From a virus: 64,000 nucleotides of DNA. Location: positions 32,001 to 96,000 of the IMG/VR virus record IMGVR_UViG_3300030085_004215; one strand, given 5' to 3'. Below are positions 8,336 through 28,672 of this stretch, piece by piece; position 1 is the first letter of the stretch, and each line of letters begins with the position of its first letter. The notes below the pieces were generated by a model, which did not search any database, had not been told where the DNA came from, and saw only the letters and a program-made list of their open reading frames with translations. A program made the translations under genes and the position numbers.

Positions 8336-8345
8336 TTTTTAGGAG

Positions 8346-15550: not shown

Positions 15551-17074
15551 TTATAAAACTTTAATTCCATATCGTTTTTCAAATCCAATACCATCATTAT
15601 GGGTATTCACAATTGGCATACCCTTTATATTAAGTGAGGTATTGAGTAACATCGGGCAACCTGTCTTCTTGTAAAATTCATTAATGAGATTATAAAAGTT
15701 CGGGTTATCATCCTTACTAACAGTCTGTACTCGTGATGTGTTATCAACATGACATATAGCAGGATATAAATCAGGTTGTTTACATTTAGCAACGAACTGC
15801 ATATACTGAGACTTCCTAACTGGCATATCGAATATTTCGTGTGCGTGTTCCTCAAGTACTGCAGGTGCAAAAGGTCTGAACTCCTGTCGTTTCTTAATCT
15901 TATTAACTCTATCTTTGATATCATCACCACGCGGGTCTGCCAACAAAGAACGATTACCTAACGCTCGAGGACCAAACTCCGCTCGACCACTCGCCACACC
16001 AACGATATCACCTTTAAGAAGCTTTTTCAAAGTTTGCTTAATTGGATATTCTCCTTGTATATCATAACCCAAGAAAGTATTCTTCCAATCGAGATGTTTA
16101 CCCAATACATATGCAGCACATCCCAACGATGAACCACCATCACCGGGATTTGGAATAATCCATATATTGGGATATCTTCTCGCCAATAAGGAATTCGCTA
16201 CACAATTTAATGCAACTCCACCACCATATACAAAGTTATCTATATTGGGTAACATGGATTGTGCTAACTCAAATACTTTAAGTATCTCTTCTTCACATAT
16301 TGCTTGTACATTTGCTGCTATATCAAACTTCCACTTATCACTTCCATCATCTGGATAACACTTAGGATTCCAATCCATACATCCTCGGTGTAGGTTTTGT
16401 TTAAACTCTACAATACCCTCATTGAAGAATTCATCGCGTATCTCTTTTTGTAATGTGGTATCTAATGTTCCCCATCCTGCCATACCCATAAGTATGTATT
16501 CATCTTCTTGAGGTTTTAAACCCAACCTCTGTGTCATAGCACTATACCATAACCCTAATGAATGTGGATATTGACGATTCCACAACTTTTTAAATTGGGT
16601 TTCCCCATTGTGGTTTGTTCTGATATGCCATATAGTGGTGGTATCCCATTCTCCTATTGCATCAATCATCACACCAATACTCTCTCTATAGGGAGAGGTA
16701 AAATATGCTGCACTCGCGTGTGATAAATGATGAGATATGTAATGGTTGGGTTTAAGATTAAATTGTTTTAAATACTTACTTGGTAGGTTCTGAAGAGTAA
16801 AGGTATCTTGAGTTTGACCTGCCCATAGTTGTCGTGATTTCTTTAACCAAGGCTGTTCAAACCACACGACTGTATCCCAATCCCCATAACGGCGTAATTG
16901 AGATAGTAGTTGTGGATTTAATAACTCATCATTTTTTATTTCTGAGTTTCGTTCACTATGGCCTGCAAACCTTATATCGGTATCGTGTATAAGTGCAGCA
17001 GTAGCATCATGATTTAAACCAGTTAATCCAAGTATTCTTTTGTTTTGATTGGGTTTGGTTATGTAACATTTCAT
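15551..17074 (-). CDS. Carbamoyltransferase (NodU/CmcH/TobZ family)
   Basis: HDATAA, HHLSHA, DAIGEW, GGVALNC, EFGPRALGNRS, FRPFAP, HVDNTSRVQTV, LNTSLN. Confidence 0.93.
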   Translation of the reverse strand: MKCYITKPNQNKRILGLTGLNHDATAALIHDTDIRFAGHSERNSEIKNDELLNPQLLSQLRRYGDWDTVVWFEQPWLKKSRQLWAGQTQDTFTLQNLPSKYLKQFNLKPNHYISHHLSHASAAYFTSPYRESIGVMIDAIGEWDTTTIWHIRTNHNGETQFKKLWNRQYPHSLGLWYSAMTQRLGLKPQEDEYILMGMAGWGTLDTTLQKEIRDEFFNEGIVEFKQNLHRGCMDWNPKCYPDDGSDKWKFDIAANVQAICEEEILKVFELAQSMLPNIDNFVYGGGVALNCVANSLLARRYPNIWIIPNPGDGGSSLGCAAYVLGKHLDWKNTFLGYDIQGEYPIKQTLKKLLKGDIVGVASGRAEFGPRALGNRSLLADPRGDDIKDRVNKIKKRQEFRPFAPAVLEEHAHEIFDMPVRKSQYMQFVAKCKQPDLYPAICHVDNTSRVQTVSKDDNPNFYNLINEFYKKTGCPMLLNTSLNIKGMPIVNTHNDGIGFEKRYGIKVL

Positions 17075-17113
17075 ATTAATATATATTAAGTTACATGAGG
17101 AAAATGTAATATT

Positions 17114-17500
17114 TTTTTACCTCGAAAGCGAGGTAAAAATAAAAGTGTTAATACTATGTTTACCTCATAGGTAGGGGGTGATAATAACTCGCTTAGGTAA
17201 AAAAAGCCACGCCAATATAAGCACGAGTTTGGCATTCTGACATATTGTCATACATTCACCGATTCACGATTAATAGCCCGGCGTGGCCATGTTCGGGTGT
17301 TGGGGTCATACCTGAACTACCTGATTGACCTAATGTTACACTTTTATTTTTTACTAACCCGTATTTCGTCATAACTGACTTTTTGTCATGATTGGTATTT
17401 TATTTTTTGTAAGGGTGACGAACTCCAAATCTGGAGTCACTTAAAGTATTACTTGAAGCCCACAGTTAAAGTAGTACTTGAGGTCTGACAATGTGTCATT
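17114..17500. repeat. Non-coding block with hairpin, 14-bp inverted repeat, three CTGACWNNNTGTCAT palindromes and two 16-bp direct repeats
   Basis: Hairpin 17114-17139; IR 17135-17148/17338-17351; palindrome cores 17238-17250, 17376-17388, 17486-17498; TTAAAGTAKTACTTGA at 17441 and 17466. Confidence 0.75.
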
Positions 17501-17576
17501 ATATTTAATGTGGTTGGGTAAGTAATCCAAGTCAATTTCCCCAAAATGGACAAATAATAATAGACATAGCCACCTT

Positions 17577-17606
17577 AATTTACGAAAAAAATACTATACG
17601 AGTCAA
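17577..17606 (-). promoter_or_regulatory. Early promoter (copy 5), firing into the non-coding block
   Basis: TTGACT-N18-TAAATT-AAGGT. Confidence 0.7.
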
Positions 17607-17619
17607 GTGTTTTTTTTAA

Positions 17620-18288
17620 TTATTCTAAAGTTTTTTGAAATTCTTCGAATGGTATATACTCGACTTCAAGTTCTTCTTTAACCTCTACTTCAAGTGGTAC
17701 TTTAAGTGTTTCCTGAATATTGACATTCTCGTCATTCTTTATATGGATATCACGAGGTATGTGGTCATCAATCACACTCACTAATGGTACATCTCTGTGT
17801 CTATACCAACCTTTCATAGTGGTTTGTAGTTCATATACACAATTCAAACAAAGGACTCGTAGGTTCTCTAACTTGGTATTTAGGTGGTCTTTGTCTATAA
17901 AATCCAATAGTAAAGGGTAGGTATCATCAGTTATGTGTGTGAAATCACACGGACAATTACTACACTTTTGTTCTAAATAACCCTCTTTAAAACATTTTTT
18001 CAGTAACACGGTCTCCCTATAGGGTGAGGGATTTTCACCTTGTAATATTTTTTTTAGGTCATAAGGTGATATACGAGTACTATTCCGTTTCCTAATCCCC
18101 TTACTGGAGGGTAGTGGGTTCCATAACCCGTATTCCTTACAATATTTTTTAAAGGTAATATAACTCATATTTAGGTATTCACTGGCCATTCTCATAGATT
18201 GGGTGGACTCTATGGCCCACTTTATCTTGTTTTCGGTGGGTCTTTTACTCGGACGACCAACATTACTATTTTTTATACTAATACCCAT
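17620..18288 (-). CDS. HTH plus degenerate HNH-fold protein
   Basis: SMRMASEYLNMSYITFKKY HTH; CSNC...LLDFIDKDHLNTKLENLRVLCLNC. Confidence 0.65.
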   Translation of the reverse strand: MGISIKNSNVGRPSKRPTENKIKWAIESTQSMRMASEYLNMSYITFKKYCKEYGLWNPLPSSKGIRKRNSTRISPYDLKKILQGENPSPYRETVLLKKCFKEGYLEQKCSNCPCDFTHITDDTYPLLLDFIDKDHLNTKLENLRVLCLNCVYELQTTMKGWYRHRDVPLVSVIDDHIPRDIHIKNDENVNIQETLKVPLEVEVKEELEVEYIPFEEFQKTLE

Positions 18289-18581
18289 GATAAAAATCCT
18301 TAAAATAATACTTGACTTTTAGATATAAATGGACAATATATTTTCATATTTATATCATCTTTATTATTATACCTATCTATGATAATAACTATCCCGATAG
18401 GGTAAAAAGTGGGTAGAAGTGGTTAATAATGTATAAGAAATTCGGTACACTACCATTTTCAGAATATTTCCACGAAGTGGTCCTTCAGGAAAAGTTCATG
18501 TATTATATTTATTTATAAGTGGAAACTTCTTCAGTATCGGAACCGTATAATCTATATATTCATAATCATTAAAGGAAAAAA

Positions 18582-18914
18582 ATGGAAACAATTAAAGAAT
18601 TTATAAACGAATACTCTTGGTTATTAGTGACAGGAGTAGGGTTATTATTGTTTCAAAACACCATAACTGAGATAGTTGAGGGAATTATGATATTCTTAGG
18701 TAATGATTATAATGAGGATGATGTTGTCGAAGTGGATGGTTCTCCTGGTCGTATAGTACGAGTGGGAATGTGGAAAACCGTATTCTTTATATATCATATC
18801 GTAGATGGTAAAGTAGTAGGTGGTAGTAAATTAGTTGTCGTGAATTCTAAACTAAAGGATTTAAAAATAGAGAAACCCCTACCCAACTTGGATTTATCTA
18901 AGTATCAAAAATGA
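18582..18914 (+). CDS. Small MscS-beta-domain-like membrane protein; only clear plus-strand gene
   Basis: TM segment then YNEDDVVEVDGSPGRIVRVGMWKT; AAGGA SD. Confidence 0.6.
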   Translation: METIKEFINEYSWLLVTGVGLLLFQNTITEIVEGIMIFLGNDYNEDDVVEVDGSPGRIVRVGMWKTVFFIYHIVDGKVVGGSKLVVVNSKLKDLKIEKPLPNLDLSKYQK

Positions 18915-19254
18915 GGTCTTTCCTATACAAGATATTGTTTTATGAGATTAACTTGTTTAAACATAAGAACAAAACCCTTGATTATTTAAACTCCAGAAAA
19001 CCACTTCGTATTCGTATACAAGAATATAATCAACTCCATAATAAATAAAGATACCCCAATCCAATCAATATCAAAATCACCATTTTAAAATACTCATAAT
19101 ACTCGTCTTGTTTTGAAAATTGAACTGGTCGTTTCTTCTTCTCTACCTTATCCCAATCACCTAATCTACCCATAAAACCACCACATTGCAATTATCCAAC
19201 CTAATGGTATACCTATTGAGATACCCATTAAAATATACTCTATTCCATTATCAT

Positions 19255-19545
19255 TCATTTTCTTTTCACCTCTACATCCAACATTCGACATAAATCCATT
19301 GTGAGATTATTGTATTCGGGATATTTCACTAAGGTTTCTAACAACTTATCAACATACTCAATTGGGATTGTATCGAGTTCGGGATACTCTATCAACATCA
19401 TACTCACTTGTAGAAATGTATGGATGGCCTCCTCTACCTCTTTTGGATGGCCTGGTTGAACTCCCTTTTTACCCGATTGATAATCCTTCATTAATCGTTC
19501 AAAATGTTCACGAAGTTCTTTTTCGTTGGGTTTATCGTTACTCAA
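19255..19545 (-). CDS. Hypothetical protein
   Basis: Probable TTG start after AAGGAAG, overlapping the upstream stop. Confidence 0.55.
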   Translation of the reverse strand: MSNDKPNEKELREHFERLMKDYQSGKKGVQPGHPKEVEEAIHTFLQVSMMLIEYPELDTIPIEYVDKLLETLVKYPEYNNLTMDLCRMLDVEVKRK

Positions 19546-19756
19546 CTTCTTCCTTATCCGTTGAGGTATCGTGAGTATTCCAATGATATTCACTTTCATA
19601 TTGAGGTGTTGAATTATATTCTTGTATTAATTGACCTCTCACTATACTTTCATCTTGTTCATTTAATTTAATATCTAAAAAATCCCAATCTATTGTGATA
19701 TTATCTTTAAGGTAGTCACGAATCATTTCGTATTTTTCTTTTAACTCTTCACTCAT
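19538..19756 (-). CDS. Hypothetical protein
   Basis: MSEELKEKYEM... after AGGA SD. Confidence 0.55.
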   Translation of the reverse strand: MSEELKEKYEMIRDYLKDNITIDWDFLDIKLNEQDESIVRGQLIQEYNSTPQYESEYHWNTHDTSTDKEEVE

Positions 19757-19962
19757 TATCTTTCCTATAACTTGGATTAACTCTTTTATTGAAATCCAAA
19801 GTGTGTTTATATTACTCTCTCTCAAGGTACTCTCCTTTCACGATTGACGATATTGATTTGGGTTGGTTCGTTAGAACCAATCCCATTAACTTATCGAGTC
19901 GTAACTTTGTTGGGTGATTCCACCTCTTATATATACATATATTTGTTTTGAAAAAATAGTCG

Positions 19963-21690
19963 TTACTTTGTTGTCAAATCGAATACTTTCATATTTTTCC
20001 ACCCATTTACTTTGGTGAGGTCTTTCTTATCAATAACCACTATTCTTTCCACACCTCTTACTTTGTAATGTGTATTACCATAATCTCTGATATTGGTTTT
20101 GAGTTTATTAAAATGGTTATCATTTTCTCCACCATGTACCCAAACCATAGTTCTGAAAGGTTTCATGTGGTCTGGAGTTTCCATCTGAATCCTGGCCAGA
20201 AATTCAGTATAGTGGTAATCATCCATTACATCTATCTGAAACTCTAACAAATCATATTTATCATTTTCATCCACTTGGTGAACCAAATCCAAATTATGTG
20301 GATACACTTTCTGTAAATCCTCTTTCCAACTACTATCTAATGTATCAACATTCCTGTCAAGTACTCTACCCATATTCAATAGTGTATTACTATGTAGTGG
20401 ATGAGTATCATCTTGTAGAATTTTTACAATTTCGGATACCTCATTCTTCTCTTGTGATGAATGTACGGTTCCTTTAGTTTTATGTTCCCAACCCATATCC
20501 AATACGAGTTTTCTCAAAAATGTTTTAATTTTCTCTTGAAATTTGGTATCACTAATCTTGGTCTTATCACGACCAGAGGGATTATCTGGAGATGAGGGTA
20601 GTATTTGGATAACTAATTTACGATAGTTATATCTTGAATCCCATGTACGAGTATGTTCACTATATAACCCAATTTCAAATAATCTAACCCTATTCGGTCC
20701 AAGTACATCAATGGTTGGGAAAGACCTATCTCCACCTTTGGAATCCCATAGAAATACATTATCCTCACCAACCCTATTCTTAAAATCCTCGAACTCGGCC
20801 GAGTTTTCAGGTGGTATCACATCCGTGTAATAAACTGATATATGATACTCCTTATCACCATCTTTAATTTTATGGAAATTACCTAAAACATCGTCCTCTT
20901 GGTTTACTGAGGGTATCATATCCTCAATAGTGGTAACAAGATTATCACCAAATACTGGTAAGTATAGTTTATTATTAGAACCAGTATTATCACCAATTTT
21001 GAAGTTTATACTAACATCAGTATTGTTGAATCTTCTACGAGTAAATTTTCTAATCTTGTAAAAATCAAAATTAAGACCTAAATCACTATATAGATTTATC
21101 TTATCGAAGAAACCAGTATATTCTCCACCTTGACCATGTAGTTTAAGAAAATCAACAAGACCAACAGAATAGAAATCTACTGAGATTCCTACACAATGAT
21201 TCATAAATTGTCTTTTAGAAATATTATGAATATCATCCTCTAAAAAATTCTGATTATCGAATTCATAATTAAATTTACCAATGATATAAGTATCACCAGA
21301 AATTTTGAAACCAACATAATCTCTAATCCCAATTTGATACATCCCTAATGAACCACCAATTCCGGCCAGGTCAATAGAGTAATCACTTGGTTTTTTCTTT
21401 TTACCAGTTTTTCTTCTGATAAAGTTACTTATCACAAAATTCATTCCAGAGTTTTCATCAACCACCTCTGGTCGTTTTGTTAATCCAACACCATTATCCG
21501 AATGGATAAATATATTATTATCAATATGGTTAAGAATCTTTCTTGATTCATAATCAAATGAGTTATCGTCTTGTTCGGCCGAGATATTCTCATCGGTGAA
21601 ATCGTTCTCCAATGGTTGGACAGTAATCCAACTATGTAAATCTTCACCAATATCATAACTACCGATTTTGTTTAATTTTGAAAAATCCAT
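19963..21690 (-). CDS. Large hypothetical protein with divergent GHKL-ATPase-like N-terminus
   Basis: QPLEND (N-box-like), SDNGVG (G1), AGIGG (G2); own early promoter. Confidence 0.5.
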   Translation of the reverse strand: MDFSKLNKIGSYDIGEDLHSWITVQPLENDFTDENISAEQDDNSFDYESRKILNHIDNNIFIHSDNGVGLTKRPEVVDENSGMNFVISNFIRRKTGKKKKPSDYSIDLAGIGGSLGMYQIGIRDYVGFKISGDTYIIGKFNYEFDNQNFLEDDIHNISKRQFMNHCVGISVDFYSVGLVDFLKLHGQGGEYTGFFDKINLYSDLGLNFDFYKIRKFTRRRFNNTDVSINFKIGDNTGSNNKLYLPVFGDNLVTTIEDMIPSVNQEDDVLGNFHKIKDGDKEYHISVYYTDVIPPENSAEFEDFKNRVGEDNVFLWDSKGGDRSFPTIDVLGPNRVRLFEIGLYSEHTRTWDSRYNYRKLVIQILPSSPDNPSGRDKTKISDTKFQEKIKTFLRKLVLDMGWEHKTKGTVHSSQEKNEVSEIVKILQDDTHPLHSNTLLNMGRVLDRNVDTLDSSWKEDLQKVYPHNLDLVHQVDENDKYDLLEFQIDVMDDYHYTEFLARIQMETPDHMKPFRTMVWVHGGENDNHFNKLKTNIRDYGNTHYKVRGVERIVVIDKKDLTKVNGWKNMKVFDLTTK

Positions 21691-21728
21691 TTCTTAATTC
21701 CTTGTATTTTCTTTATTTATTATACCTA

Positions 21729-21758
21729 AATATACGAACAAAAACATATATGTGTCAA
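21729..21758 (-). promoter_or_regulatory. Early promoter (copy 6)
   Basis: TTGACA-N18-TATATT. Confidence 0.8.
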
Positions 21759-22210
21759 GAGTTTTTTTCATAAATTTTTATTTTATGGTACATTTTATTT
21801 AAGGCCTCTTTTTGTTTCGGTGTAACCCGACCATATCGTTTTACCCCTTTTAGAACACTAGTCAAAAAGGATAAACTACTATCTTTCCATTTATCAGTAC
21901 CATCGGCCTCTTTTACTAAAAACATCAACTTAGTTATTTTTTCTTCTATACTCTGTATCTTCTCAACTCGTTTTGGGTCGTCATTTTCTTTTCTCCATTT
22001 CACATAACCATCTATAATTTTTTGGATTGCCGATTCCATCTTAGGTGTTATAGTTCTACCACCACTAATTGCATTAGTCATACTATGGACAAATTCCTTG
22101 TAACCGTCATTCATATAGTAATCACCGTCTGAGATGATGTAACTCAGTTGTTGGTGTTGTTTTTTGAATTTGTCCATATTATCGACAATCCTATGAGGGA
22201 CTTTACTCAC
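21755..22210 (-). CDS. Hypothetical protein with internal duplication
   Basis: Repeated F(V/L)xS...GR/x-TPK helical units. Confidence 0.6.
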   Translation of the reverse strand: MSKVPHRIVDNMDKFKKQHQQLSYIISDGDYYMNDGYKEFVHSMTNAISGGRTITPKMESAIQKIIDGYVKWRKENDDPKRVEKIQSIEEKITKLMFLVKEADGTDKWKDSSLSFLTSVLKGVKRYGRVTPKQKEALNKMYHKIKIYEKNS

Positions 22211-22214
22211 TTAC

Positions 22215-22415
22215 TTAGAAATCCTCCAGGAGTTCATCAAGTTCACTATCCATTCCATCAAAATCATTGATGAATCCATCATTCAATGTATCGAACATCA
22301 CATTATCCATCTTCATATCGTCAAGTGACATTTTTTTGGTTCCATATCCAACATCTTTAGTAGATGTATGTTTTTTGAGTTTTTTTGGTTTATTGACCAT
22401 TTTGTTTTTCTTCAT
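22215..22415 (-). CDS. Small hypothetical protein (basic N-terminus, acidic C-terminus)
   Basis: Start MKKNKM after AAGGA SD and promoter copy 7. Confidence 0.6.
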   Translation of the reverse strand: MKKNKMVNKPKKLKKHTSTKDVGYGTKKMSLDDMKMDNVMFDTLNDGFINDFDGMDSELDELLEDF

Positions 22416-22441
22416 TGTTTTTCCTTTATTTATCATGGTTA

Positions 22442-22471
22442 AATATACAAAACTTTTACTATATGTGTCAA
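22442..22471 (-). promoter_or_regulatory. Early promoter (copy 7)
   Basis: TTGACA-N18-TATATT. Confidence 0.8.
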
Positions 22472-22509
22472 GTGTTTTTTTCACTTTTTTAATTTTTTTT
22501 TTCGTAAGG

Positions 22510-23024
22510 AGTTGGTGGGAAGTACTCCGCCCTCCCACCATATGAGAATCAGAACTAACTACCGATATTAATTTCGCCACCTCGGTAGAGGGTGACCTTA
22601 AATCTTTCGATTGATGTCCGATGTGCTCTTCCGTTCCACCTCGGTAAAACATTTTCTACAAAGGGTCTGTGTTCCCTATAGAAGTAATCAAACCATGTAC
22701 CATCAATCTAAATCTTAGTGTTGGACTGGTTCTCCTCTTTATTCGCGAGTTCAAGGATATTCCGAGTTGTCCGTAGACTTTCATTTTAAGGTTCTCACAC
22801 CACTCAATCCCTACTCCTCTTTCGTGAACTGAGCCAACAAAATCTTTGGTGGTCTTTGTCTATGAGTTCCACCTTCTCTCATCTGCCTCATTATTCTTGA
22901 TTCTACCGAGGACTTTAGTAGAACCCCACATTCTTCTTACCCTATCCCGTCTTTACCCAATGTGGTAGGTGGGATTCAACAGGTTTTCATTAGTTCATCG
23001 GTTTATTTTCTCCTCATTTATCAT
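22510..23024 (-). ncRNA. Candidate large structured non-coding RNA (~480-510 nt)
   Basis: Own promoter, no credible ORF, series of hairpins incl. AAUC-GAAA-GAUU and a terminal 10-bp stem (22513-22540). Confidence 0.55.
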
Positions 23025-23029
23025 ACCTA

Positions 23030-23059
23030 AATATACGGCTTTTTTACTATATAAGTCAA
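23030..23059 (-). promoter_or_regulatory. Early promoter (copy 8)
   Basis: TTGACT-N18-TATATT; -35/spacer/-10 identical to copy 2. Confidence 0.8.
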
Positions 23060-23225
23060 GTACTTTTTTCATTTTTTTTCAATTTTTTTTTATCATTAAT
23101 ATCTAAATCTATTACACACCCTAAACAAATTTCTGGATAAAAAATCATTTTACCATCTAATGGACCAGAACAAACCTTACAAGTAATTTCTTCCAGTCCG
23201 ATAGTCATTAATGGTTTTTTCATTT

Positions 23226-23570
23226 TTAAAACAATTCTCCATTTACTTGGATTAAATCTTGTGTTAATGTACTTGGTTCATCAAAAGATGAAGTGATAAA
23301 TGGACCATCTTCATCTACATCTACATCCCATCCACACCCAACTCTGGCCATTACTTCGTCTACGATTTTATCCTCACCAAATGCAAGTTTATCAAACCAG
23401 TCGTACTTCATATCTAATACTGAAGTAGGATTACTGAAATCAATATCACCATTTTCTAAAATTTTAAAGACATTACCATTAATGGTATCAATTACAGAAT
23501 GGACTTGAAATAAAACTTTTATTTCACTTGTGTCACGATTGTTGTTTTCTAAATATGTTTCTAAGTTCAT
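23226..23570 (-). CDS. Hypothetical early protein
   Basis: Second Met after AAGGA SD; own promoter. Confidence 0.65.
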   Translation of the reverse strand: MNLETYLENNNRDTSEIKVLFQVHSVIDTINGNVFKILENGDIDFSNPTSVLDMKYDWFDKLAFGEDKIVDEVMARVGCGWDVDVDEDGPFITSSFDEPSTLTQDLIQVNGELF

Positions 23571-23596
23571 TATTTTTCCTTTATTTTTCATACCTT

Positions 23597-23626
23597 AATA
23601 TACAAAAGAAATACTATATAAGTCAA
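23597..23626 (-). promoter_or_regulatory. Early promoter (copy 9)
   Basis: TTGACT-N18-TATATT. Confidence 0.8.
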
Positions 23627-23635
23627 GTACTTTTT

Positions 23636-23995
23636 TTAATTTTTTTCAGAAAGTTTTGAAAAATATTCATCCTTACTGATACCCAGTCTACCATTAGTTT
23701 TTCTACCCCAAGTAAACTCACTCTTTAGTTTTTTGTTAGACAATACATTAACAAAAAACTCATTAGTTGGATTCTCACAAACAAACTCATAGTTTTTTAA
23801 GAATCTATCCACACCATTCATATCACTACTTTTTGTGAAATACATTCTTTCATATGGTAAATTTACAGTACTCATAGACAATTTGAAATTCTTGAAATAC
23901 TTATTGTACTCAACTCCGACATGTTGGATAGTACCACTTCTTTTATTTACCCAATAAGTGTAAGTACCTTCTTTTAGATGTTTTCTTGTATTCAT
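23636..23995 (-). CDS. Hypothetical early protein
   Basis: Second Met after AAGGA SD; contains no Ala. Confidence 0.65.
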   Translation of the reverse strand: MNTRKHLKEGTYTYWVNKRSGTIQHVGVEYNKYFKNFKLSMSTVNLPYERMYFTKSSDMNGVDRFLKNYEFVCENPTNEFFVNVLSNKKLKSEFTWGRKTNGRLGISKDEYFSKLSEKN

Positions 23996-24021
23996 TATTT
24001 TTTCCTTATTTTTCATACCTT

Positions 24022-24051
24022 AATATACTAAAGAAATAGTATATGTGTCAA
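24022..24051 (-). promoter_or_regulatory. Early promoter (copy 10)
   Basis: TTGACA-N18-TATATT. Confidence 0.8.
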
Positions 24052-24068
24052 GTGTTTTTTTCATTTTT

Positions 24069-24413
24069 TTATAAATAATTTGGACCCGTCCAACTATAAT
24101 AATCTTGGTTCTTATCAAAGATATTACCACGAGTATGTTTTGCTGCTGCATTATATCCTGCGGCCTTGAATACATCACCACACTTCATAGGTAGACCTTT
24201 ATGTTGTCCATCTACTTTTGCAACAAATCCCCAAACACGATTCCTCTCTACAATCTTGTCGAACTTACGACCTGGTTTTATGTCTAATTCTAAATCTCTG
24301 GCATGAGTATGTTTAGACCAGTTGTGATAACTCGTTTGAATACCTTTCAATAGGTTTTCAACACCTGTTTTGTAATCGTTTTTTGGTGGTAATGGTTTAA
24401 TTCCGTTAATCAT
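24069..24413 (-). CDS. Conserved phage early hypothetical protein
   Basis: GRKFDKIV...VWGFV...GDVFKAAGYNAAAKHTRGNI motif seen in T4-like marine phages; AAGGAG SD. Confidence 0.7.
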   Translation of the reverse strand: MINGIKPLPPKNDYKTGVENLLKGIQTSYHNWSKHTHARDLELDIKPGRKFDKIVERNRVWGFVAKVDGQHKGLPMKCGDVFKAAGYNAAAKHTRGNIFDKNQDYYSWTGPNYL

Positions 24414-24439
24414 TATTTTCTCCTTATTTTTGATACCTT

Positions 24440-24469
24440 AATATACGAAGAAAATATAATACGAGTCAA
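24440..24469 (-). promoter_or_regulatory. Early promoter (copy 11)
   Basis: TTGACT-N18-TATATT. Confidence 0.8.
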
Positions 24470-24517
24470 GTACTTTTTTTATATTTTTTGAAGTTTTTTA
24501 ATGAATGGAATAAAACT

Positions 24518-24802
24518 TTATTTGTATAACATTTCCCATAGGTTTTTCAGAAAAAGTGATAGAAAACCAACTCCGATGACACCTCTCCATTTTGTCGTAT
24601 TTTCTCTGAATTGAGTATTCTGTTTTGTCTCTGCCCATAATCCCTCGTGTGGATTAAATAGATTCTCCTTCAAAAACCTTAATGATTCATCTGTCCTACC
24701 ATGTGCCATGGACATTTCGTGTTTCAACTCATCAAGTTTTTTTTCAATTGAATCAATCTTATTATGGACTAAATCAAATTCTTTTCTATCGGCTTGGTTC
24801 AC
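24518..24802 (-). CDS. Coiled-coil protein with C-terminal TM helix
   Basis: Heptad pattern then WRGVIGVGFLSLFL. Confidence 0.6.
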   Translation of the reverse strand: MNQADRKEFDLVHNKIDSIEKKLDELKHEMSMAHGRTDESLRFLKENLFNPHEGLWAETKQNTQFRENTTKWRGVIGVGFLSLFLKNLWEMLYK

Positions 24803-24846
24803 CTTAACATACCCCTATGTTTAGTTGATAATAAATACTGTATATA

Positions 24847-25044
24847 TTAATTTCTGTACTTTCTTGGAGTTGGTTTTTTTGGTTTATATCCACTTTCTAA
24901 AACTTTTTTATCTTCAATCAAGTTATCAATCAATCTGTTCTTTCTTTCCATAGATTTTATAGTGAATAAACCCATTGACAAACCACCCATTATTACTCCA
25001 ATAATAATACCACAAAAAAATGCCAACCAAATAGGATTAATCAT
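24847..25044 (-). CDS. Small single-TM protein
   Basis: N-terminal hydrophobic helix. Confidence 0.55.
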   Translation of the reverse strand: MINPIWLAFFCGIIIGVIMGGLSMGLFTIKSMERKNRLIDNLIEDKKVLESGYKPKKPTPRKYRN

Positions 25045-25148
25045 TTTGTCTTTGATGTTCGTATAACACTAATACATACATTAAAACACATCCCATTGCG
25101 ATTAGTCCTACTGGAACCACATTAAGATATATTATTAAAATTGCCTCA

Positions 25149-25337
25149 CTAATCGTCATCTGTTTCCTCGTTGGTTAAATACTCAGAATCTTGATGTACC
25201 ACAATGACACTTCCACTTTCTTCACTTGGATTATCTTCATAATCTTTACGAAGTTCTATGGCCTCTTTTTCAATCTCTATCGAAAGGTTTTCAAGTTCTT
25301 TTAATTGTTCTTGTGTTAAAATTGGTTCTTTACTCAT
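25149..25337 (-). CDS. Small acidic hypothetical protein
   Basis: ATGA coupling. Confidence 0.55.
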   Translation of the reverse strand: MSKEPILTQEQLKELENLSIEIEKEAIELRKDYEDNPSEESGSVIVVHQDSEYLTNEETDDD

Positions 25338-25591
25338 CCTAATAACCTATCTTCATCATCAACTATATCTTTATCTTCTTTCCACCATTCTACCTGTCTA
25401 TTCTGTAATGATGACCTCAATCCTAAATCAAAATCATTTTCAGTCTGTACTTTCCATAATTTATCAAATTCACTTTCATCTATCTGTTTTCGTTTAACAA
25501 AATAGGTTTTTGCACCCGATATACCAACATCATCCGATAAATCAACTTTATCAATTATCTCATCAAATTTATTAACTAATAAATACTTCAA
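25334..25591 (-). CDS. Hypothetical protein
   Basis: AGGAG SD with TTG start. Confidence 0.6.
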   Translation of the reverse strand: MKYLLVNKFDEIIDKVDLSDDVGISGAKTYFVKRKQIDESEFDKLWKVQTENDFDLGLRSSLQNRQVEWWKEDKDIVDDEDRLLG

Positions 25592-25603
25592 CTCAAACTC
25601 CTT

Positions 25604-26140
25604 TTATTCAAGGACGATACCAATCATATCCCAACTCTCTCTATTGTATTGTGCACCGACCCATAGTGTATCACCAATCATATTTTGGACTGGTGCAATC
25701 ATATTTACAACCTCACCATCATCACTATAACTGGCATAATTACTCGTTCTAACTTCATGACCAACAAAATGTGTTATATAAGTGGTATCATAACCGACCC
25801 ATTGTACTTCATCACTTAACCCACCATGAACATAATAACCCATAGTATCACCAACATGCCAATATAGATTACTTTCGAAATACACTTTCCATCTATCAAC
25901 TGCCCCATCTTGGTCTGTTAAGAACCCCTCTAACCTATGTAATGTTTGCCATTTAAATCTATTGATTGTAAGATGATATAATCCGTTATCATCTTGTGGT
26001 AAACCCACTGTCCAAACAAATTCAAATTCTCGTTCCTCCTCATAGTGTTTATCTTCACACCCTATGAATATGAATAGACTAACGAGAACTATTCTTTTTA
26101 TTAATCTTGAATGTCTTTGAATCTTTTTTACTAAATTCAT
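25604..26140 (-). CDS. Putative lipoprotein
   Basis: Basic N-region, hydrophobic stretch, FIG-C lipobox. Confidence 0.55.
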   Translation of the reverse strand: MNLVKKIQRHSRLIKRIVLVSLFIFIGCEDKHYEEEREFEFVWTVGLPQDDNGLYHLTINRFKWQTLHRLEGFLTDQDGAVDRWKVYFESNLYWHVGDTMGYYVHGGLSDEVQWVGYDTTYITHFVGHEVRTSNYASYSDDGEVVNMIAPVQNMIGDTLWVGAQYNRESWDMIGIVLE

Positions 26141-26246
26141 TGTAACTCTTCCTTTTCTTTTTTGGTTTTTTCTTTGTTTGGATTGTTTCTCTGAAGGCCT
26201 CTTCTTCGAGTTCTTCCCAATCCAAATTGTTATGAAATTTACTCAT
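26079..26246 (-). CDS. Small charged hypothetical protein (55 aa)
   Basis: MSKFHNNLDWEELEEEAF...; AAGGAG SD right after promoter copy 12. Confidence 0.55.
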   Translation of the reverse strand: MSKFHNNLDWEELEEEAFRETIQTKKKPKKKRKSYNEFSKKDSKTFKINKKNSSR

Positions 26247-26258
26247 TTACAACTCCTT

Positions 26259-26288
26259 AATATAACACCAAAAATACATACGAGTCAA
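26259..26288 (-). promoter_or_regulatory. Early promoter (copy 12)
   Basis: TTGACT-N18-TATATT. Confidence 0.75.
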
Positions 26289-26527
26289 CGCTTTTTTACT
26301 CTTAATTTCTCTATGAAACTTAAAAACTCTTCTATACTATAAGTAGTACCCTGGTCATCGAAAATACTAAAATTTTCTAATGATTCTGGTTGGTTGTGAA
26401 TCAGATTGTGTAGTGCAAGCATACCATCTCCTGCATACCAAGTTCCTAAACTCTCTTCACCTAAAATATTAGAATCAAACATTAAATTTTCTTTAGATTC
26501 ATTTTTCCCTAATATGAAAAACGTCAT
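26285..26527 (-). CDS. Hypothetical protein
   Basis: Coupled ORF. Confidence 0.55.
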   Translation of the reverse strand: MTFFILGKNESKENLMFDSNILGEESLGTWYAGDGMLALHNLIHNQPESLENFSIFDDQGTTYSIEEFLSFIEKLRVKKR

Positions 26528-27764
26528 TTACCATCCCCTCTTCAAGTGGTTTCACTCTTCTAATTTCAACATCAAATATATCTATCTCAAATCTTCCTTC
26601 TTCACCCGAATCAGAGAGTATATTTGATAAATTTTCAATAATATCTCTACTATAGTTCGTTATTCTATCACAATCAAATCTTAAAATAATATCATTATCT
26701 ACTTCCGAATGATGTGTCTTGATTTTTTTTGATAAATCGTACAATGTATTCTGTTGTTCTGAACTTATGTATTTATTTACACCATAACCTTTATGTCCAA
26801 CCCAATCTCCATAAATTGTGGTACACCACGGTTCTAAATATTCTAAATTCTGTAAATTACAATTCTCTACCACAAAACCTATATCATATACTTTAGGTAT
26901 GACTGGATGTAACCATTCATCATGAGTTATTATTGCACCCCATTTTCTAATAAAGTTTCGTGTACTCCGTTGGTTCTGAGCCAACCACTCCGATGATTCT
27001 CTACCCTTCATAAAAACTTGACCTGCAGGATTTCTAATTGCACCATCTTTGAATCTACTACCTCTACAAGTCATATGATACACAAACCCTTTCCAAGTCT
27101 GTATCAACTCGTATCCTGCCAAAAGAAATCTGTTGAATATATCAGAGTCCTCTTTGGATTGTGGTGCAAATAGTGGGTCATGTCCACCAACAAAATCCCA
27201 ATCCTTTTTCATTATGGCCCATGGTGCAAATATTCCTTTTGAAATCTCTTGATTGAGAGATAATGGCCCGTATAACAAACCATCCTTACCAGTTTGGATA
27301 TCATCAACAAACTTTAATAATTCAGTTTCTTTAAACTCCTCTGGTTCTATTCCGAAATCTTCTAATATTTTTTCTTTACCATCTGGATGTAATGGTGGTT
27401 CTATTCTTGTTAGTGATACGACAGTTCCATCTTTAATAAGTTTATCTATCTGTACATCTGAATTAGGACAGAGATACATATCTGCATGAAATATCATAAC
27501 TATATCATTACTTGAATACTCATTTATTAATGTATCATATAGAATAGTATGTCCTAATCTTTCTGGACCTGGATTGACATGTAATCTAACCTTTTTATCA
27601 GTTTTCATAATTTCCTCAACCCACTCAACTGTCCCATCTGTACTTGCATCACTTGCAATACAAATCTCGTGTTCTATAGATTGGTTCCTACGAATACTAT
27701 TATATGCCTGTTTTAAATATTTTAAGTTATTCCTACTTGGTAATATAAAACTTATAGGTCTCAT
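26499..27764 (-). CDS. Glycosyltransferase family 2
   Basis: ISFILPSRN, DASTDGT, HADM, GGHD, EDSD. Confidence 0.88.
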   Translation of the reverse strand: MRPISFILPSRNNLKYLKQAYNSIRRNQSIEHEICIASDASTDGTVEWVEEIMKTDKKVRLHVNPGPERLGHTILYDTLINEYSSNDIVMIFHADMYLCPNSDVQIDKLIKDGTVVSLTRIEPPLHPDGKEKILEDFGIEPEEFKETELLKFVDDIQTGKDGLLYGPLSLNQEISKGIFAPWAIMKKDWDFVGGHDPLFAPQSKEDSDIFNRFLLAGYELIQTWKGFVYHMTCRGSRFKDGAIRNPAGQVFMKGRESSEWLAQNQRSTRNFIRKWGAIITHDEWLHPVIPKVYDIGFVVENCNLQNLEYLEPWCTTIYGDWVGHKGYGVNKYISSEQQNTLYDLSKKIKTHHSEVDNDIILRFDCDRITNYSRDIIENLSNILSDSGEEGRFEIDIFDVEIRRVKPLEEGMVNDVFHIREK

Positions 27765-28672
27765 TTATTTGTCAACTCCCAATGTTCTTTCCATTTTTCT
27801 TCTGTATAGTTTTGTTCAAATCTCTTAAGTGTCGTATCACTACACAAATCCCAAAATTTTTGTGACCTTAGTTTTCTTGCAACTTCTTTGGCCCCTTCTA
27901 AATCACCAACCTCGACTGTAGTTAGTGGATGTAATATTTCTTGTGTATCCAATCCTTTGTATCCAATACAAGGTGTTCCATGAAACCCACAGTTCATGGC
28001 AAATGTACCAGCAGCATGTGTCCTCATCAGATGAACACCTATACTAAAACCACCTAATGTATCTAACCAATCTCTCCAATTCATATAAGGTAGGTAATCT
28101 ATATCCTCAATGGCATCTTCTTGGTCTTGTTTTCTACCCATCGAGGGTGCCGACATAGGATATCCTATCTCTCTTGCCACTATGTAAGAATCAAAACCAC
28201 CATACCAACTAACAAAGTTACCACCAATCATTATACTGTTACTCCATCCAAACTCTCTTCTATTAAATCCATCAGTAATCATCAAACTTCTCATCACTCT
28301 TACATCCTTACAACCTAAACCAAGATAGTAATTCACATCACTTTCATTGTGACAATATACCCAATCTGCATCTGTTATCGTATTATAGTATTTGAATTGA
28401 TTTTCAATGGTGTAATCTTGAAAATACCAATGTGGTCCTTCCTGCATTACTGCAACTTTATCACAACATTCTCTGTATGTATTTAAATCTACATTAGGAT
28501 TTGTTTTTGGTATTATAACAATACCCAAATCAAACTTTTCACTCGGTATGTTGTTTATATTATAATGTGGTGCATCTAATGCCATCATCCAACCATATTC
28601 AGTTCTGGCATTGGGAAAATCTCTTGGTATTTTACCTTCTATTTGACTTTCTGAAAAAAATACAACCTTCAT
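27761..28672 (-). CDS. Glycosyltransferase-like protein (GT-B type)
   Basis: C-terminal AGTFAMNCGFHGTPCIG; island context. Confidence 0.55.
   Translation of the reverse strand: MKVVFFSESQIEGKIPRDFPNARTEYGWMMALDAPHYNINNIPSEKFDLGIVIIPKTNPNVDLNTYRECCDKVAVMQEGPHWYFQDYTIENQFKYYNTITDADWVYCHNESDVNYYLGLGCKDVRVMRSLMITDGFNRREFGWSNSIMIGGNFVSWYGGFDSYIVAREIGYPMSAPSMGRKQDQEDAIEDIDYLPYMNWRDWLDTLGGFSIGVHLMRTHAAGTFAMNCGFHGTPCIGYKGLDTQEILHPLTTVEVGDLEGAKEVARKLRSQKFWDLCSDTTLKRFEQNYTEEKWKEHWELTNK

What the first reader, a model, noticed from the sequence alone, without database searches (positions are those of the whole stretch)
17571..22028. Sharp-edged zone almost free of GpC, except inside GGCC
Seen: by manual reading, 17571-22028 (~4.45 kb) contains only 11 GpC dinucleotides. 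Ten are in GGCC (18184, 18214, 19426, 19449, 20194, 20797, 21364, 21577, 21803, 21905) and one in TGCA (19187). A rough estimate from base composition is about 100. CpG is common here, so this is not simply low GC content. The avoidance reaches the proteins: the 110-aa plus-strand protein has no Ala, the 222-aa protein 2 and the 575-aa protein 4, all in GGCC context. GpC is ordinary just left of ~17290. To the right it returns gradually: TGCA/GGCA first, AGC/GCT mostly after ~35 kb. Inference: this is the first-injected end of a linear genome, purged of targets of a host defence recognising GpC-centred sites before phage protection is expressed (compare the site-depleted T5/T7 early regions). 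Tolerance of GGCC would fit pre-existing methylation of its inner C. A two-base target with a positional gradient would be an undescribed phage-host conflict signature.
Basis: partly seen in the sequence, partly recalled or inferred. Interest (0 to 1): 0.9.

Follow-up and report, generated by a model that had tools for sequence, protein, structure and literature searches.

The report
GpC-free, almost alanine-free phage operon
In one lineage of an uncultured marine phage, a 4.5-kb early gene unit has lost nearly every GC dinucleotide, even at the cost of removing alanine from its proteins, which suggests that an unidentified enzyme reading a very short GC-centred DNA word acts on this phage.

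Summary
Confirmed. Window 17571-22028 holds 11 GpC where 83-112 are expected (P about 1e-23). Ten are in GGCC and one in TGCA; CpG and GC-free words are normal.

The DNA is a 120-kb fragment (66% complete) of an uncultured marine T4-like myophage with nearly all genes on the minus strand.

The purge is selection on double-stranded DNA, in place and in this lineage only:
- Orthologues in related phages have ordinary GpC (HNH 20-21 vs 2; GHKL ATPase 21 vs 4).
- Family-conserved alanines were replaced, mostly by Ser.
- All 9 alanines kept inside the zone are coded G|GCC.

The simplest avoided word is 5'-GCD-3' on either strand, so GGCC needs no methylation.

The core coincides with one promoter-to-stop unit (GHKL ... 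HNH). To the right GpC returns patchily, unit by unit, up to about 32 kb.

The agent is unidentified. The "first-injected end" idea is neither shown nor excluded: no termini could be mapped, and contigs of 4 of 4 runs cross the edge.

This scan noted similar GC-word-free blocks in other phages before. I re-checked one, Syn9 and RGCY.

The parts
17571..22028 (.). Core GpC-free zone: 11 GpC, 10 in GGCC and 1 in TGCA
17620..18288 (-). HNH (homing-type) endonuclease gene, 222 aa, 2 Ala and 2 GpC, both GGCC. It is the last gene of the unit. Syntenic orthologues have 20-21 GpC.
   Evidence: PHROG HNH endonuclease 2.3e-12; PADLOC HEase 4e-6; orthologues
18312..18342 (+). The only plus-strand copy in the genome of the early-promoter-like motif, upstream of the inverted 110-aa gene
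18582..18914 (+). Inverted 110-aa gene with no Ala. A 45%-identical homologue in relative G003 lies on that record's plus strand.
19255..19599 (-). 114-aa ORF of unknown function; 1 Ala, 2 GpC, both GGCC
19963..21690 (-). GHKL-type ATPase (Hsp90/MORC/MutL-like fold), 575 aa, 4 Ala, all G|GCC. Homologues have 13-28 Ala.
21729..21758 (-). Promoter-like site TTGACA-N18-TATATT that would drive the core unit; its spacer has no GpC
21755..22210 (-). 151-aa gene that straddles the right edge. Its two 3' alanines are in GGCC; its two 5' alanines are in TGCA and GGCA context on the coding strand. It is homologous to the gene upstream of the GHKL gene in relative L005 (36% identity).
22029..32000 (.). 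Partly purged stretch specific to this lineage (GpC ratio to orthologues about 0.3-0.9). It holds six more promoter-like sites (22442-26288) and small ORFs, then the start of a sugar-biosynthesis cluster.
17075..17619 (.). Non-coding boundary block: hairpin/terminator-like sites, a promoter-like site at 17577-17606 (-), 19-nt iteron-like repeats, and a 125-nt element (17155-17279) conserved at 86.5% and 75% with relatives G006 and G008. GpC is ordinary from about 17290 leftwards.
15551..17074 (-). Carbamoyltransferase gene immediately left of the edge. It is not purged: 41 GpC, ratio 1.05 to 5 orthologues.

Best explanation
Selection acting on double-stranded DNA has removed, in this phage lineage only, every GpC that reads 5'-GCD-3' (= 5'-HGC-3') on either strand. 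The removal is complete in one early transcription unit, from the promoter-like site at 21758 to the stop codon of the HNH gene at 17620. This unit holds the GHKL ATPase gene, a 114-aa ORF, an inverted 110-aa gene and the HNH gene. Removal is partial in the promoter-rich units just upstream.

Most likely reason (inferred): an enzyme that reads this very short GC-centred word acts on the phage DNA. It could be a frequent cutter or nickase of the host or of a competitor. Less likely, it is a base-modifying enzyme. Each site carries a cost everywhere in the genome, so GpC is pared down to roughly one per alanine codon genome-wide. In this unit a single hit is not tolerable, because its products must be made from an intact, unmarked template before the phage has neutralised or repaired the damage. 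So even alanines were given up, and the indispensable ones were recoded to the only safe context, G|GCC.

Shown: the purge, its DNA-level symmetry, its lineage specificity, its origin in place, and its fit to the unit.

Inferred: the agent, and why this unit is the critical one.
For: 1. Selection rather than mutation.
- Against the 74%-identical orthologue (L005), the 4 shared alanines changed from TGCC, TGCT, TGCA and TGCA to GGCC in 4 of 4 cases. Each needs two flanking changes.
- The 15 other alanines of the relative are S 7, V 3, D 2, G 2, M 1 and T 0 here, so transversions dominate.
- Eight full-length homologues have 13-28 Ala against 4 here. Family-conserved Ala columns are replaced: S64, G138, M567.

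2. Double-strand symmetry.
- All 9 retained Ala codons inside the zone are GCC preceded by G.
- AGCC, TGCC and CGCC are absent on the coding strand.
- Codon-boundary G|C is 0 observed against 25.5 expected.
- AGC and GCT are equally rare on one strand.
- Non-coding DNA is purged too: 1 GpC in 1060 bp.

3. In place and lineage-specific.
- Syntenic relatives G006 and G008 keep the order carbamoyltransferase, HNH, 151-aa homologue, glycosyltransferases. Their HNH genes carry 21 and 20 GpC against 2 here.
- The own/orthologue GpC ratio is 1.05 for the carbamoyltransferase, 0.10 for HNH, 0.33-0.53 at 21.7-22.6 kb, mostly 0.3-0.9 for 24.5-32 kb (two short genes at 1.2-1.4), and about 1 beyond.
- Usage of tetranucleotides without GC is native: r = 0.92-0.93 against 0.94 +/- 0.03 for control pieces.

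4. Genome-wide per-site cost.
- NGC codons are 3-5% of their NNY pairs (CGC 10%) against 10-26% for other pairs.
- Boundary G|C observed/expected is 0.47.
- GpC per gene is about equal to Ala per gene.

5. Fit to a unit.
- The extended promoter-like motif occurs 12 times in the window against 0.32 expected by chance, always on the minus strand.
- The unit 21758 to 17620 has 1 non-GGCC GpC in 4139 bp. Units upstream have 2.8, 11.9, 1.8, 0, 14.4 and 7.1 per kb, which is non-monotonic (P = 0.005 and 0.003).

6. Independent precedent for regional GC-word purges in a cultured T4-like cyanophage whose record is circular: Syn9 has 3 RGCY in 34-52 kb and none in 42-52 kb, against about 3 per 2 kb elsewhere.
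Against: - No agent is identified. The host is unknown, and no GC-specific nuclease or C5-methyltransferase was found in the 120 kb.
- Roughly 2,200 GpC remain elsewhere in the 120 kb (about 18.6 per kb outside the depleted domain). The agent must therefore be slow, repairable or soon neutralised. That is an assumption.
- Units with the same promoter-like motif left of the edge (7143, 7619, 10738, 11317) have ordinary GpC. Being early is therefore not enough.
- The promoters are consensus matches without expression data. No RNA run held the stretch.
- The patchiness of the upstream units could reflect protein or RNA constraint rather than unit-level selection.
- Nothing shows that the GHKL, HNH or small proteins are needed first.
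Confidence: 0.42

Rival explanations
1. Leading-end model. The genome has fixed ends, the boundary at about 17.1-17.6 kb is a terminus, and the zone is a T5-like first-step-transfer segment. It sits in the cell, exposed to a GC-reading nuclease, before protection is expressed. Exposure time falls with distance from the end.
For: - The shape fits: a very sharp left edge (24 vs 2 GpC per kb) and a relaxing right side.
- The boundary block is non-coding, repeat-rich and carries iteron-like repeats conserved in relatives.
- In the T5 record the first-step-transfer genes also point towards the terminus. They include an HNH gene and a small divergent block.
- All genes of this phage run in one direction.
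Against: - The baseplate and DNA polymerase are T4-like. From recall, T4-like phages package by headful with circular permutation.
- No end repeats are on record and the record is a fragment.
- Contigs of 4 of 4 runs cross the edge. This does not exclude a terminal repeat.
- The return of GpC is patchy by unit, not monotonic.
- Relatives with the same boundary block lack the extreme purge.
- Syn9, whose record is circular, shows a regional GC-word purge too.
Confidence: 0.22
2. Self-modification model. The phage itself marks GCD sites after replication, as in the GpC-directed C5-methyltransferase/TET/glycosyltransferase pathways. This unit must stay free of bulky marks, for example to be read by the unmodified host polymerase straight after entry.
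For: - Phage C5-methyltransferases with 2-3-nt GpC words exist: GpC[C/T], GpC[C/T/G] and GpCN (passages of PMC8256090). Their role is open (passages of bioRxiv 10.1101/2023.12.21.572611).
- The genome carries a large sugar-nucleotide and glycosyltransferase cluster at 26.5-51 kb.
- It also carries an operon of a thymidylate-synthase-like enzyme, an AsnB-like enzyme, a PLP enzyme, an HD hydrolase and a methylase-like protein.
Against: - No C5-methyltransferase (PF00145) or TET/JBP (PF12851) was found in the 120 kb, although a third of the genome is missing.
- The published words include GCC, which is the tolerated context here.
- Genome-wide minimisation of GpC is odd if the mark is beneficial.
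- Other units with the same promoter-like motif are not purged.
Confidence: 0.13
3. Mutational footprint. The cause would be context-specific cytosine deamination, either of 5-methyl-C at methylated GpC or by a GC-preferring deaminase, concentrated on heavily transcribed or single-stranded DNA. It would be a GpC analogue of vertebrate CpG decay.
For: GpC is mildly depleted over the whole genome (observed/expected about 0.5-0.9). The core lies downstream of a cluster of seven promoter-like sites.
Against: - GC in the relative corresponds here to TC 7, GT 3, GA 2, GG 2, AC 1, CT 1 and AT 1, so only 4 of 17 changes are the expected transitions.
- Ala went to Ser 7, Val 3, Thr 0.
- Retained alanines acquired two specific flanking changes each.
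- GT and AC are not enriched in the core.
- Long ORFs are intact.
Confidence: 0.04
4. Import. The block was acquired by recombination from a donor phage that is GpC-poor throughout.
For: - The region is mosaic. In one run a contig matches the GHKL gene with 7 differences in 1839 nt, while its flanks differ by 4% and 10% and two stretches are replaced.
- GHKL is absent from the syntenic relatives G006 and G008.
- Promoter repeats could mediate cassette shuffling.
Against: - The purge covers genes of different history: HNH is syntenic in relatives, the 110-aa gene lies elsewhere in G003, GHKL occurs with its upstream partner in L005, and non-coding DNA is included.
- The composition without GC words is native.
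- A whole genome without alanine codons is implausible, so a donor would need the same local purge. The question only moves.
Confidence: 0.06
5. RNA-level avoidance. Early mRNAs escape an endoribonuclease or RNA-modifying toxin with a GC-containing 2-3-nt word. Analogues, from recall, are GCU-specific MqsR and GA-specific CmdT.
For: Defences with dinucleotide specificity on RNA exist: CmdTAC, seen as a listing and abstract. The hierarchy GCT before GCA resembles GC[U/A] words (recalled).
Against: - The word is avoided on both strands. Every retained GCC is preceded by G (9 of 9).
- AGC and GCT are equally rare.
- Non-coding spacers and promoter spacers are purged as well.
Confidence: 0.04

Closest known systems
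First-step-transfer (pre-early) region of phage T5
   Same: - A few kb at one place in the genome is kept free of a nuclease target while the rest is not. This property of T5 is recalled, not tested here.
- Genes point towards the boundary.
- The block holds an HNH gene and a small divergent gene block.
- It is bounded by a repeat-rich non-coding signal (T5 record annotation).
   Different: - T5's region is a defined terminal repeat with an injection stop signal. No terminus is shown here and the phage is T4-like.
- T5 avoids 6-bp sites. Here a 2-3-bp word is avoided, which forces amino-acid changes.
Classical restriction-site (palindrome) avoidance in phage genomes, and 'antidote first' gene order such as T7 gene 0.3 (recalled)
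   Same: Selection removes target words from DNA. The strongest protection lies where early expression matters.
   Different: - Known cases concern 4-6-bp sites that can be removed synonymously and genome-wide.
- Here the word is so short that alanine itself is purged.
- The purge is confined to one unit, and about 2,200 sites remain elsewhere in the 120 kb.
Phage GpC-directed cytosine hypermodification: C5-methyltransferase, TET and glycosyltransferase (PMC8256090, passages read; bioRxiv 10.1101/2023.12.21.572611, passages read)
   Same: Phage enzymes exist that read GpC plus one flanking base. This genome has many glycosyltransferase and sugar genes.
   Different: - No C5-methyltransferase or TET was found in the 120 kb.
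- The published words (GpC[C/T], GpC[C/T/G], GpCN) include GCC, the context tolerated here.
- Those papers do not describe GpC-free zones in the passages I read. Their supplements were not seen.
Chlorovirus frequent cutters and nickases with 2-4-nt words: CviJI RGCY and Nt.CviPII CCD (recalled); M.CviPI GpC (mentioned in PMC8256090)
   Same: These enzymes have words as short as the one avoided here. One has the same 'D at the third place' form.
   Different: They belong to eukaryotic algal viruses. No homologue was sought or found here, and none is known with GCD specificity.
GC-word-free blocks noted earlier by this scan in other phages (e1-6017232 VGCB/RGCY in T4-like cyanophages; e1-5337450 GAC/GTC plus GpC in a lake phage)
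   Same: Regional purge of a very short GC-containing word in large myophages, in one case also stripping alanine. I confirmed a regional RGCY-free stretch in the first 100 kb of Syn9.
   Different: - The word differs. Here everything except GGCC is avoided, whereas RGCY includes GGCC.
- Here the purge is lineage-specific, fits a single unit and has a sharp edge.
- Those notes are AI notes, not publications.

Membership tests
T5-type first-step-transfer / leading-end region | Lies at a physical terminus of the packaged DNA | not testable with these tools
   Only assembled contigs were available. They cross 17.1-17.6 kb in 4 of 4 runs laid, and the tool reports no places where molecules begin or end. 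The record is 'linear', with no end repeats, and 66% complete.
T5-type first-step-transfer / leading-end region | Local absence of nuclease target sites that occur elsewhere in the genome | tested here: met
   11 GpC against 83-112 expected. The lowest distant window of the same size has 51.
T5-type first-step-transfer / leading-end region | Avoidance falls monotonically, or as one step, with distance from the end | tested here: not met
   Non-GGCC GpC per kb in successive promoter-delimited units: 0.2, 2.8, 11.9, 1.8, 0, 14.4, 7.1.
Type II restriction-site avoidance | The avoided word is a 4-8-bp, usually palindromic, recognition site | tested here: not met
   15 of 16 NGCN tetramers are absent or, for TGCA, reduced to one copy, including the non-palindromic ones. 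Only GGCC remains.
Type II restriction-site avoidance | A cognate enzyme exists in the host | not testable with these tools
   The host is unknown. psbA is absent from the 120 kb.
Phage C5-MT/TET/GT GpC hypermodification cluster | C5-cytosine methyltransferase gene | tested here: not met
   PF00145 gives no match at E <= 0.1 in the 120 kb. A third of the genome is missing.
Phage C5-MT/TET/GT GpC hypermodification cluster | TET/JBP dioxygenase gene | tested here: not met
   PF12851 gives no match at E <= 0.1.
Phage C5-MT/TET/GT GpC hypermodification cluster | Associated glycosyltransferases | tested here: inconclusive
   GT2 and GT4 genes and sugar-nucleotide enzymes are present. They are not next to any C5-MT or TET, and their substrate is unknown.
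GHKL (Bergerat-fold) ATPases, for the 575-aa protein | Bergerat fold with N-box and DxGxG-type motifs | tested here: met
   - Invariant E39, D42 and N43, and a DNGVG stretch at residues 65-69.
- AF2 model with mean pLDDT 80.6.
- Foldseek best hits Hsp90, MORC3 and MutL, E down to 7.5e-11.
- Atlas neighbours carry HATPase_c_3.
- Only 1 of 9 family members reaches Pfam HATPase_c_3, at E = 1.1e-4.
HNH homing-type endonucleases, for the 222-aa protein | Match to HNH endonuclease profiles | tested here: met
   phrog_10822 at 2.3e-12 and PADLOC HEase at 4e-6. There is no Pfam hit at E <= 0.01. Activity and target are not tested.

The most novel reading that the evidence does not exclude
Marine bacteria, or competing phages, wield an undescribed DNA-acting enzyme that reads only three bases, 5'-GCD-3'. 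It may be a frequent nickase or cutter, or a base-modifying enzyme. This phage lineage has answered by paring GpC down to its alanine codons genome-wide. It has also rewritten one early operon (GHKL ATPase, small proteins, HNH), the candidate antidote or first-needed function, into GpC-free DNA and nearly alanine-free proteins. In the bolder variant, the operon also marks a T5-like first-entering end in a T4-like myophage.
Probability: 0.35. Interest if true: 0.9.

Novelty: new variant of a known kind. Interest (0 to 1): 0.78.

Why it matters
Site avoidance is the main genomic trace of nucleases that phages meet. Here the trace is a word so short that avoiding it rewrites proteins. Alanine falls from about 4.5% to about 1% of residues across the unit's ORFs (0.7-0.9% in the two largest proteins). 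Indispensable alanines are moved into one safe context.

This shows three things:
- Selection on DNA words can override amino-acid composition in a bounded set of genes.
- An unidentified GC-reading activity exists in an abundant group of uncultured marine myophages. Eighty related loci were kept out of 96 DNA-polymerase matches.
- One operon stands out as the place where that conflict is decided, which gives a concrete handle: its GHKL ATPase, HNH and small proteins can be expressed and tested.

Together with the RGCY-free block of Syn9, it suggests that regional purges of GC-centred words are a recurrent, undescribed feature of large marine phages. I found no paper describing it in four searches.

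Tried and rejected
- DNA search of the zone against cultured phages: only a 59-nt chance-like match.
- Single-protein search for GHKL relatives in viral contigs: none. An exact 36-nt word of the gene in viral contigs: none.
The 173-kb contig that carries a near-identical GHKL protein could therefore not be read, and close strains could not be compared at DNA level.
- Rfam on 14-26 kb: no match at E <= 1.
- Profile of the GHKL family against PDB sequences: nothing at E <= 1. phmmer of the thymidylate-synthase-like protein against PDB: nothing, so dCMP versus dUMP specificity stays open.
- PADLOC: no defence-system hit for 9 of 10 zone proteins; only the HNH matched.
- Terminase search in the 120 kb: one sub-threshold P-loop match, so no packaging type could be inferred.
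- psbA: absent, so no host clue.
- A paper on Mel-JY01: none in the library.
- No RNA holder was listed for the stretch, so nothing can be said on expression.
- Laid contigs gave no places where molecules begin or end; contigs cannot show this.
- Two joints in laid contigs, 17624>23053 (short side 27 nt) and 24272>17572 (one contig), may be promoter-repeat artefacts. I did not build on them.
- Mel-JY01, the nearest cultured relative by PolB at 44%, has no GpC-poor zone: lowest 2-kb observed/expected 0.57.
- In 13 loci with an upstream flank and 7 longer related contigs, the lowest value is 0.18, in one 1-kb window of L025 and one of G008. None comes near the 4.5-kb purge.
- A model in which GC needs an A/T flank could not be excluded from tetramer counts alone: S-flanked non-GGCC expected 2.74, observed 0, P = 0.065. 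It is disfavoured because 9 of 9 retained alanines use G|GCC.
- Supplements of PMC8256090 (Figs S8-S11, motif specificities) were not seen. They may show whether any phage methyltransferase has a GCD-like word.

Full report
**What the DNA is**

The window is bases 32001-96000 of a single 120,405-bp IMG/VR virus record. The record is classed linear, without end repeats, and is 66% complete by CheckV. All but one of the ORFs of 150 aa or more lie on the minus strand, and the exception overlaps a longer minus-strand ORF.

The record encodes a T4-type baseplate wedge protein, a family-B DNA polymerase and a DnaB-like helicase. The polymerase's best cultured match is Microcystis phage Mel-JY01 at 43.9% identity. 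Relatives are plentiful in marine viromes: 96 polymerase matches were found, and the 80 loci kept have 46-90% identity. Twenty listed sequencing runs from 10 studies hold at least part of the stretch; 17 are labelled marine or seawater, 2 estuary and 1 has no label. No psbA was found. The host is unknown.

- Expectation is 112 from base composition and 83 from the GpC density of the same genome outside the depleted domain. P is 1.5e-34 and 3.9e-23.
- GC is the only strongly depleted dinucleotide. CpG is slightly raised and GGCC is enriched about four-fold.
- The left edge is abrupt: 24 GpC in the kilobase before 17571 and 2 in the kilobase after.
- Non-coding stretches inside the zone are purged too: 1 GpC in 1060 bp.
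- No other part of the 120 kb comes close. The lowest distant 4458-bp window has 51 GpC.

**It is selection on double-stranded DNA, not mutation and not RNA-level**

The 575-aa gene has a 74%-identical orthologue on a metagenome contig, L005. That contig's GpC is ordinary, 43 observed against 76 expected, which is like this genome's average. Codon-by-codon comparison shows the following:
- The relative's gene has 21 GpC and 19 Ala. The gene here has 4 and 4.
- The four shared alanines read TGCC, TGCT, TGCA and TGCA in the relative and GGCC in all four cases here. Both flanking bases were changed while the alanine was kept.
- The other 15 alanines of the relative are Ser 7, Val 3, Asp 2, Gly 2 and Met 1 here. 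Only 4 of the 17 lost GC dinucleotides became GT or AC, the products expected of cytosine deamination.

Eight full-length homologues from a whole-library search have 13-28 alanines, and alanine columns conserved across the family are replaced here.

The signal is symmetric between the strands:
- Every one of the 9 alanine codons kept inside the zone is GCC preceded by G.
- No codon boundary reads G|C (0 observed against 25.5 expected).
- AGC and GCT are equally rare on one strand.

An RNA-level word would not require the preceding G.

**The avoided word**

GGCC is the only GpC tetramer that reads GCC on both strands. The pattern therefore reduces to avoiding 5'-GCD-3' (equivalently 5'-HGC-3') on either strand, and no protective methylation of GGCC has to be assumed.

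Tetramer counts alone cannot exclude the alternative that GC needs an A/T neighbour. S-flanked tetramers other than GGCC are expected 2.7 times and seen 0 times (P = 0.065). However, under that alternative C|GCC, G|GCG and C|GCG would also be safe for alanine, and none is used.

There is a hierarchy. GCT/AGC is avoided over the widest span, out to about 56 kb. GCA/TGC is avoided only in the core.

**It arose in place, in this lineage**

Two related contigs, G006 and G008, have polymerases 81% and 87% identical. They keep the gene order carbamoyltransferase, HNH, homologue of the 151-aa gene, small genes, glycosyltransferases. Their HNH genes are 62-70% identical to the one here. They carry 21 and 20 GpC and 11 and 10 Ala, against 2 and 2 here.

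I compared GpC in aligned orthologous segments along the whole record. The own/relative ratio is:
- 1.05 for the carbamoyltransferase (five relatives);
- 0.10 for the HNH;
- 0.33-0.53 at 21.7-22.6 kb;
- mostly 0.3-0.9 between 24.5 and 32 kb, with two short genes at 1.2-1.4;
- about 1 beyond that and on the left side.

Other points:
- The gene upstream of the GHKL gene is also its neighbour in L005 (36% identity, E = 8e-25).
- The inverted 110-aa gene has its homologue elsewhere in another relative.
- Genes of different history therefore share the purge, which follows location rather than origin.
- Tetranucleotide usage restricted to words without GC is native: r = 0.92-0.93 against 0.94 +/- 0.03 for control pieces.

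**Two layers of depletion**

1. Genome-wide and family-wide. GpC is removed wherever it is free to go.
   - NGC codons are 3-5% of their NNY pairs (CGC 10%), against 10-26% for other pairs.
   - Boundary G|C observed/expected is 0.47.
   - The number of GpC in a gene roughly equals its number of alanines, here and in relatives.
   - Relatives have overall observed/expected of 0.52-0.97 and a broad AGC/GCT-poor domain in the same part of the map.
   - The cassette next to the carbamoyltransferase gene shows a mild depletion of GCA-type words in G006 and G008.
2. The extreme purge of 17.6-22 kb, with its tail to about 32 kb. This belongs to this lineage alone among 13 loci and 7 longer contigs examined. 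Mel-JY01 has no such zone.

**Anatomy of the core**

A 30-nt promoter-like motif (TTGACW, 18 nt, TATAWT, with a conserved spacer) occurs 12 times in the window against 0.32 expected by chance, always on the minus strand. Across the whole record there are 17 minus-strand copies and one plus-strand copy. Seven copies crowd into 21.7-26.3 kb.

The copy at 21729-21758 lies just upstream of the GHKL gene. From there to the stop codon of the HNH gene at 17620 there is one non-GGCC GpC in 4139 bp. The core therefore fits one promoter-to-stop unit within the resolution of the data.

The unit contains:
- the GHKL ATPase gene. The fold assignment rests on invariant N-box residues, an AF2 model with mean pLDDT 80.6, and Foldseek hits to Hsp90, MORC3 and MutL. 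Pfam support is weak, 1 of 9 members;
- a 114-aa ORF;
- an inverted 110-aa gene with its own plus-strand promoter-like site;
- the HNH endonuclease gene.

Promoter spacers inside the purged stretch lack the AGCC that three of the four copies left of the edge carry.

Upstream units have 2.8, 11.9, 1.8, 0, 14.4 and 7.1 non-GGCC GpC per kb, which is a patchy rather than monotonic return.

Left of the unit lies a 545-bp non-coding block. It has terminator-like hairpins, iteron-like 19-nt repeats, and a 125-nt element conserved with G006 (86.5%) and G008 (75%). GpC is ordinary there and in the carbamoyltransferase gene.

**Interpretation**

The facts call for an agent that reads a GC-centred word of two to three bases on duplex (or either single) DNA. 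They also call for a cost per site that is small everywhere and prohibitive in this unit.

A classical restriction enzyme does not fit, because roughly 2,200 GpC remain in the rest of the 120 kb. A frequent nickase or cutter whose damage is slow, repairable or soon neutralised would fit. So would a modifying enzyme. I prefer the reading that the unit must be expressed from an intact, unmarked template before the phage has countered the agent, because the core matches a unit and the upstream return is unit-wise.

This reading is inferred, and it has weak points. No agent was found. Units with the same promoter-like motif left of the edge are not purged. No expression data exist.

It has a real parallel in the T5 record, where first-step-transfer genes also point to the terminus and include an HNH gene. 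Against it stand four points:
- no evidence for a terminus here;
- the T4-like affinity of the phage;
- the patchiness of the return;
- a comparable regional purge of RGCY in Syn9, whose record is circular: 3 RGCY in 34-52 kb and none in 42-52 kb, against about 3 per 2 kb elsewhere in the first 100 kb.

A self-modification model is kept alive by two things. One is published phage methyltransferases with GpC-plus-one-base words (PMC8256090, passages). The other is this genome's sugar and pyrimidine-modification genes. However, no C5-methyltransferase or TET was found in the two thirds of the genome available, and the published words include the tolerated GCC.

**Known or new**

Four full-text searches found no description of a GpC-free or alanine-free phage gene block, nor of RGCY avoidance in cyanophages. 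A fifth search on 'alanine-free' returned only unrelated papers. The library lacks most subscription journals.

This scan has noted related GC-word-free blocks in other phages. I verified one claim in part (Syn9).

I class the finding as a new variant of a known kind, namely localised target-site avoidance. It is unusual for the shortness of the word, for the effect on protein composition, for the recoding of retained alanines, and for the sharp, lineage-specific, unit-sized extent.

Noticed in passing
window 8345-8418 (-): Phage tRNA-Ala with anticodon TGC. Alanine codons outside the zone are mostly GCA. The alanines kept inside the zone are GCC, which this tRNA would read poorly (the decoding rule is recalled).
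   Followed up: partly
window 17155-17279: A non-coding 125-nt element conserved at 86.5% (G006) and 75% (G008), more than the neighbouring genes at DNA level. It overlaps a minus-strand terminator-like hairpin. It may be a small RNA or a regulatory site. There is no Rfam match.
   Followed up: partly
window 17438-17481, 18297-18315, and copies in G006/G008: 19-nt iteron-like repeats (AAGTAnTACTTGA core) in the boundary block, in both orientations. They are conserved in relatives that lack the purge. They may mark an origin, a packaging site or an operator array.
   Followed up: partly
window 7114-53861 and the rest of the record: A family of 30-nt promoter-like sites with a conserved spacer: 17 on the minus strand and 1 on the plus strand of the record. 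Their similarity may mediate cassette shuffling. Laid contigs show joints 17624>23053 and 24272>17572 at such sites, but the evidence is weak.
   Followed up: partly
window 19853-21691 in run X12 (record 11): One contig matches the GHKL gene with 7 differences in 1839 nt. Its flanks differ by 4% (17198-18908) and 10% (22273-22864), and 18908-19853 and 21691-22273 are replaced. This suggests a recent exchange or sweep of this gene between diverged strains.
   Followed up: no
window about 26500-51400 (-): A large sugar-nucleotide and glycosylation cluster:
- GT2 and two GT4-type glycosyltransferases;
- two epimerase/dehydratases;
- three DegT-type aminotransferases;
- an N-formyltransferase;
- several methyltransferases, including a C-methyltransferase;
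- a UDP-glucose dehydrogenase-like protein;
- a 2OG-Fe(II) oxygenase.
Its substrate (DNA, virion or host surface) is unknown.
   Followed up: partly
L006 2752-8233 (record 18751-24232): An operon of a divergent thymidylate-synthase-like protein, an AsnB-like amidotransferase, a PLP (threonine-dehydratase-like) enzyme, an HD phosphohydrolase and a protein with a partial N6/N4 methylase domain. It is a candidate pyrimidine hypermodification pathway. Whether the base is C or U was not resolved.
   Followed up: partly
whole record: GCGC occurs once in 120 kb. TGCA makes up about a quarter of all GpC contexts outside the depleted domain, about twice the share expected from base composition. These are further word biases of the genome.
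   Followed up: no
Syn9 NC_008296, 34-52 kb: RGCY is rare in the first 100 kb examined (about 3 per 2 kb) and almost absent over 34-52 kb: 3 sites in all, and none in 42-52 kb. This stretch covers the block of small ORFs gp55-gp74 and its neighbours.
   Followed up: partly
That would fit a structural RNA constraint. There is no Rfam match.
   Followed up: no
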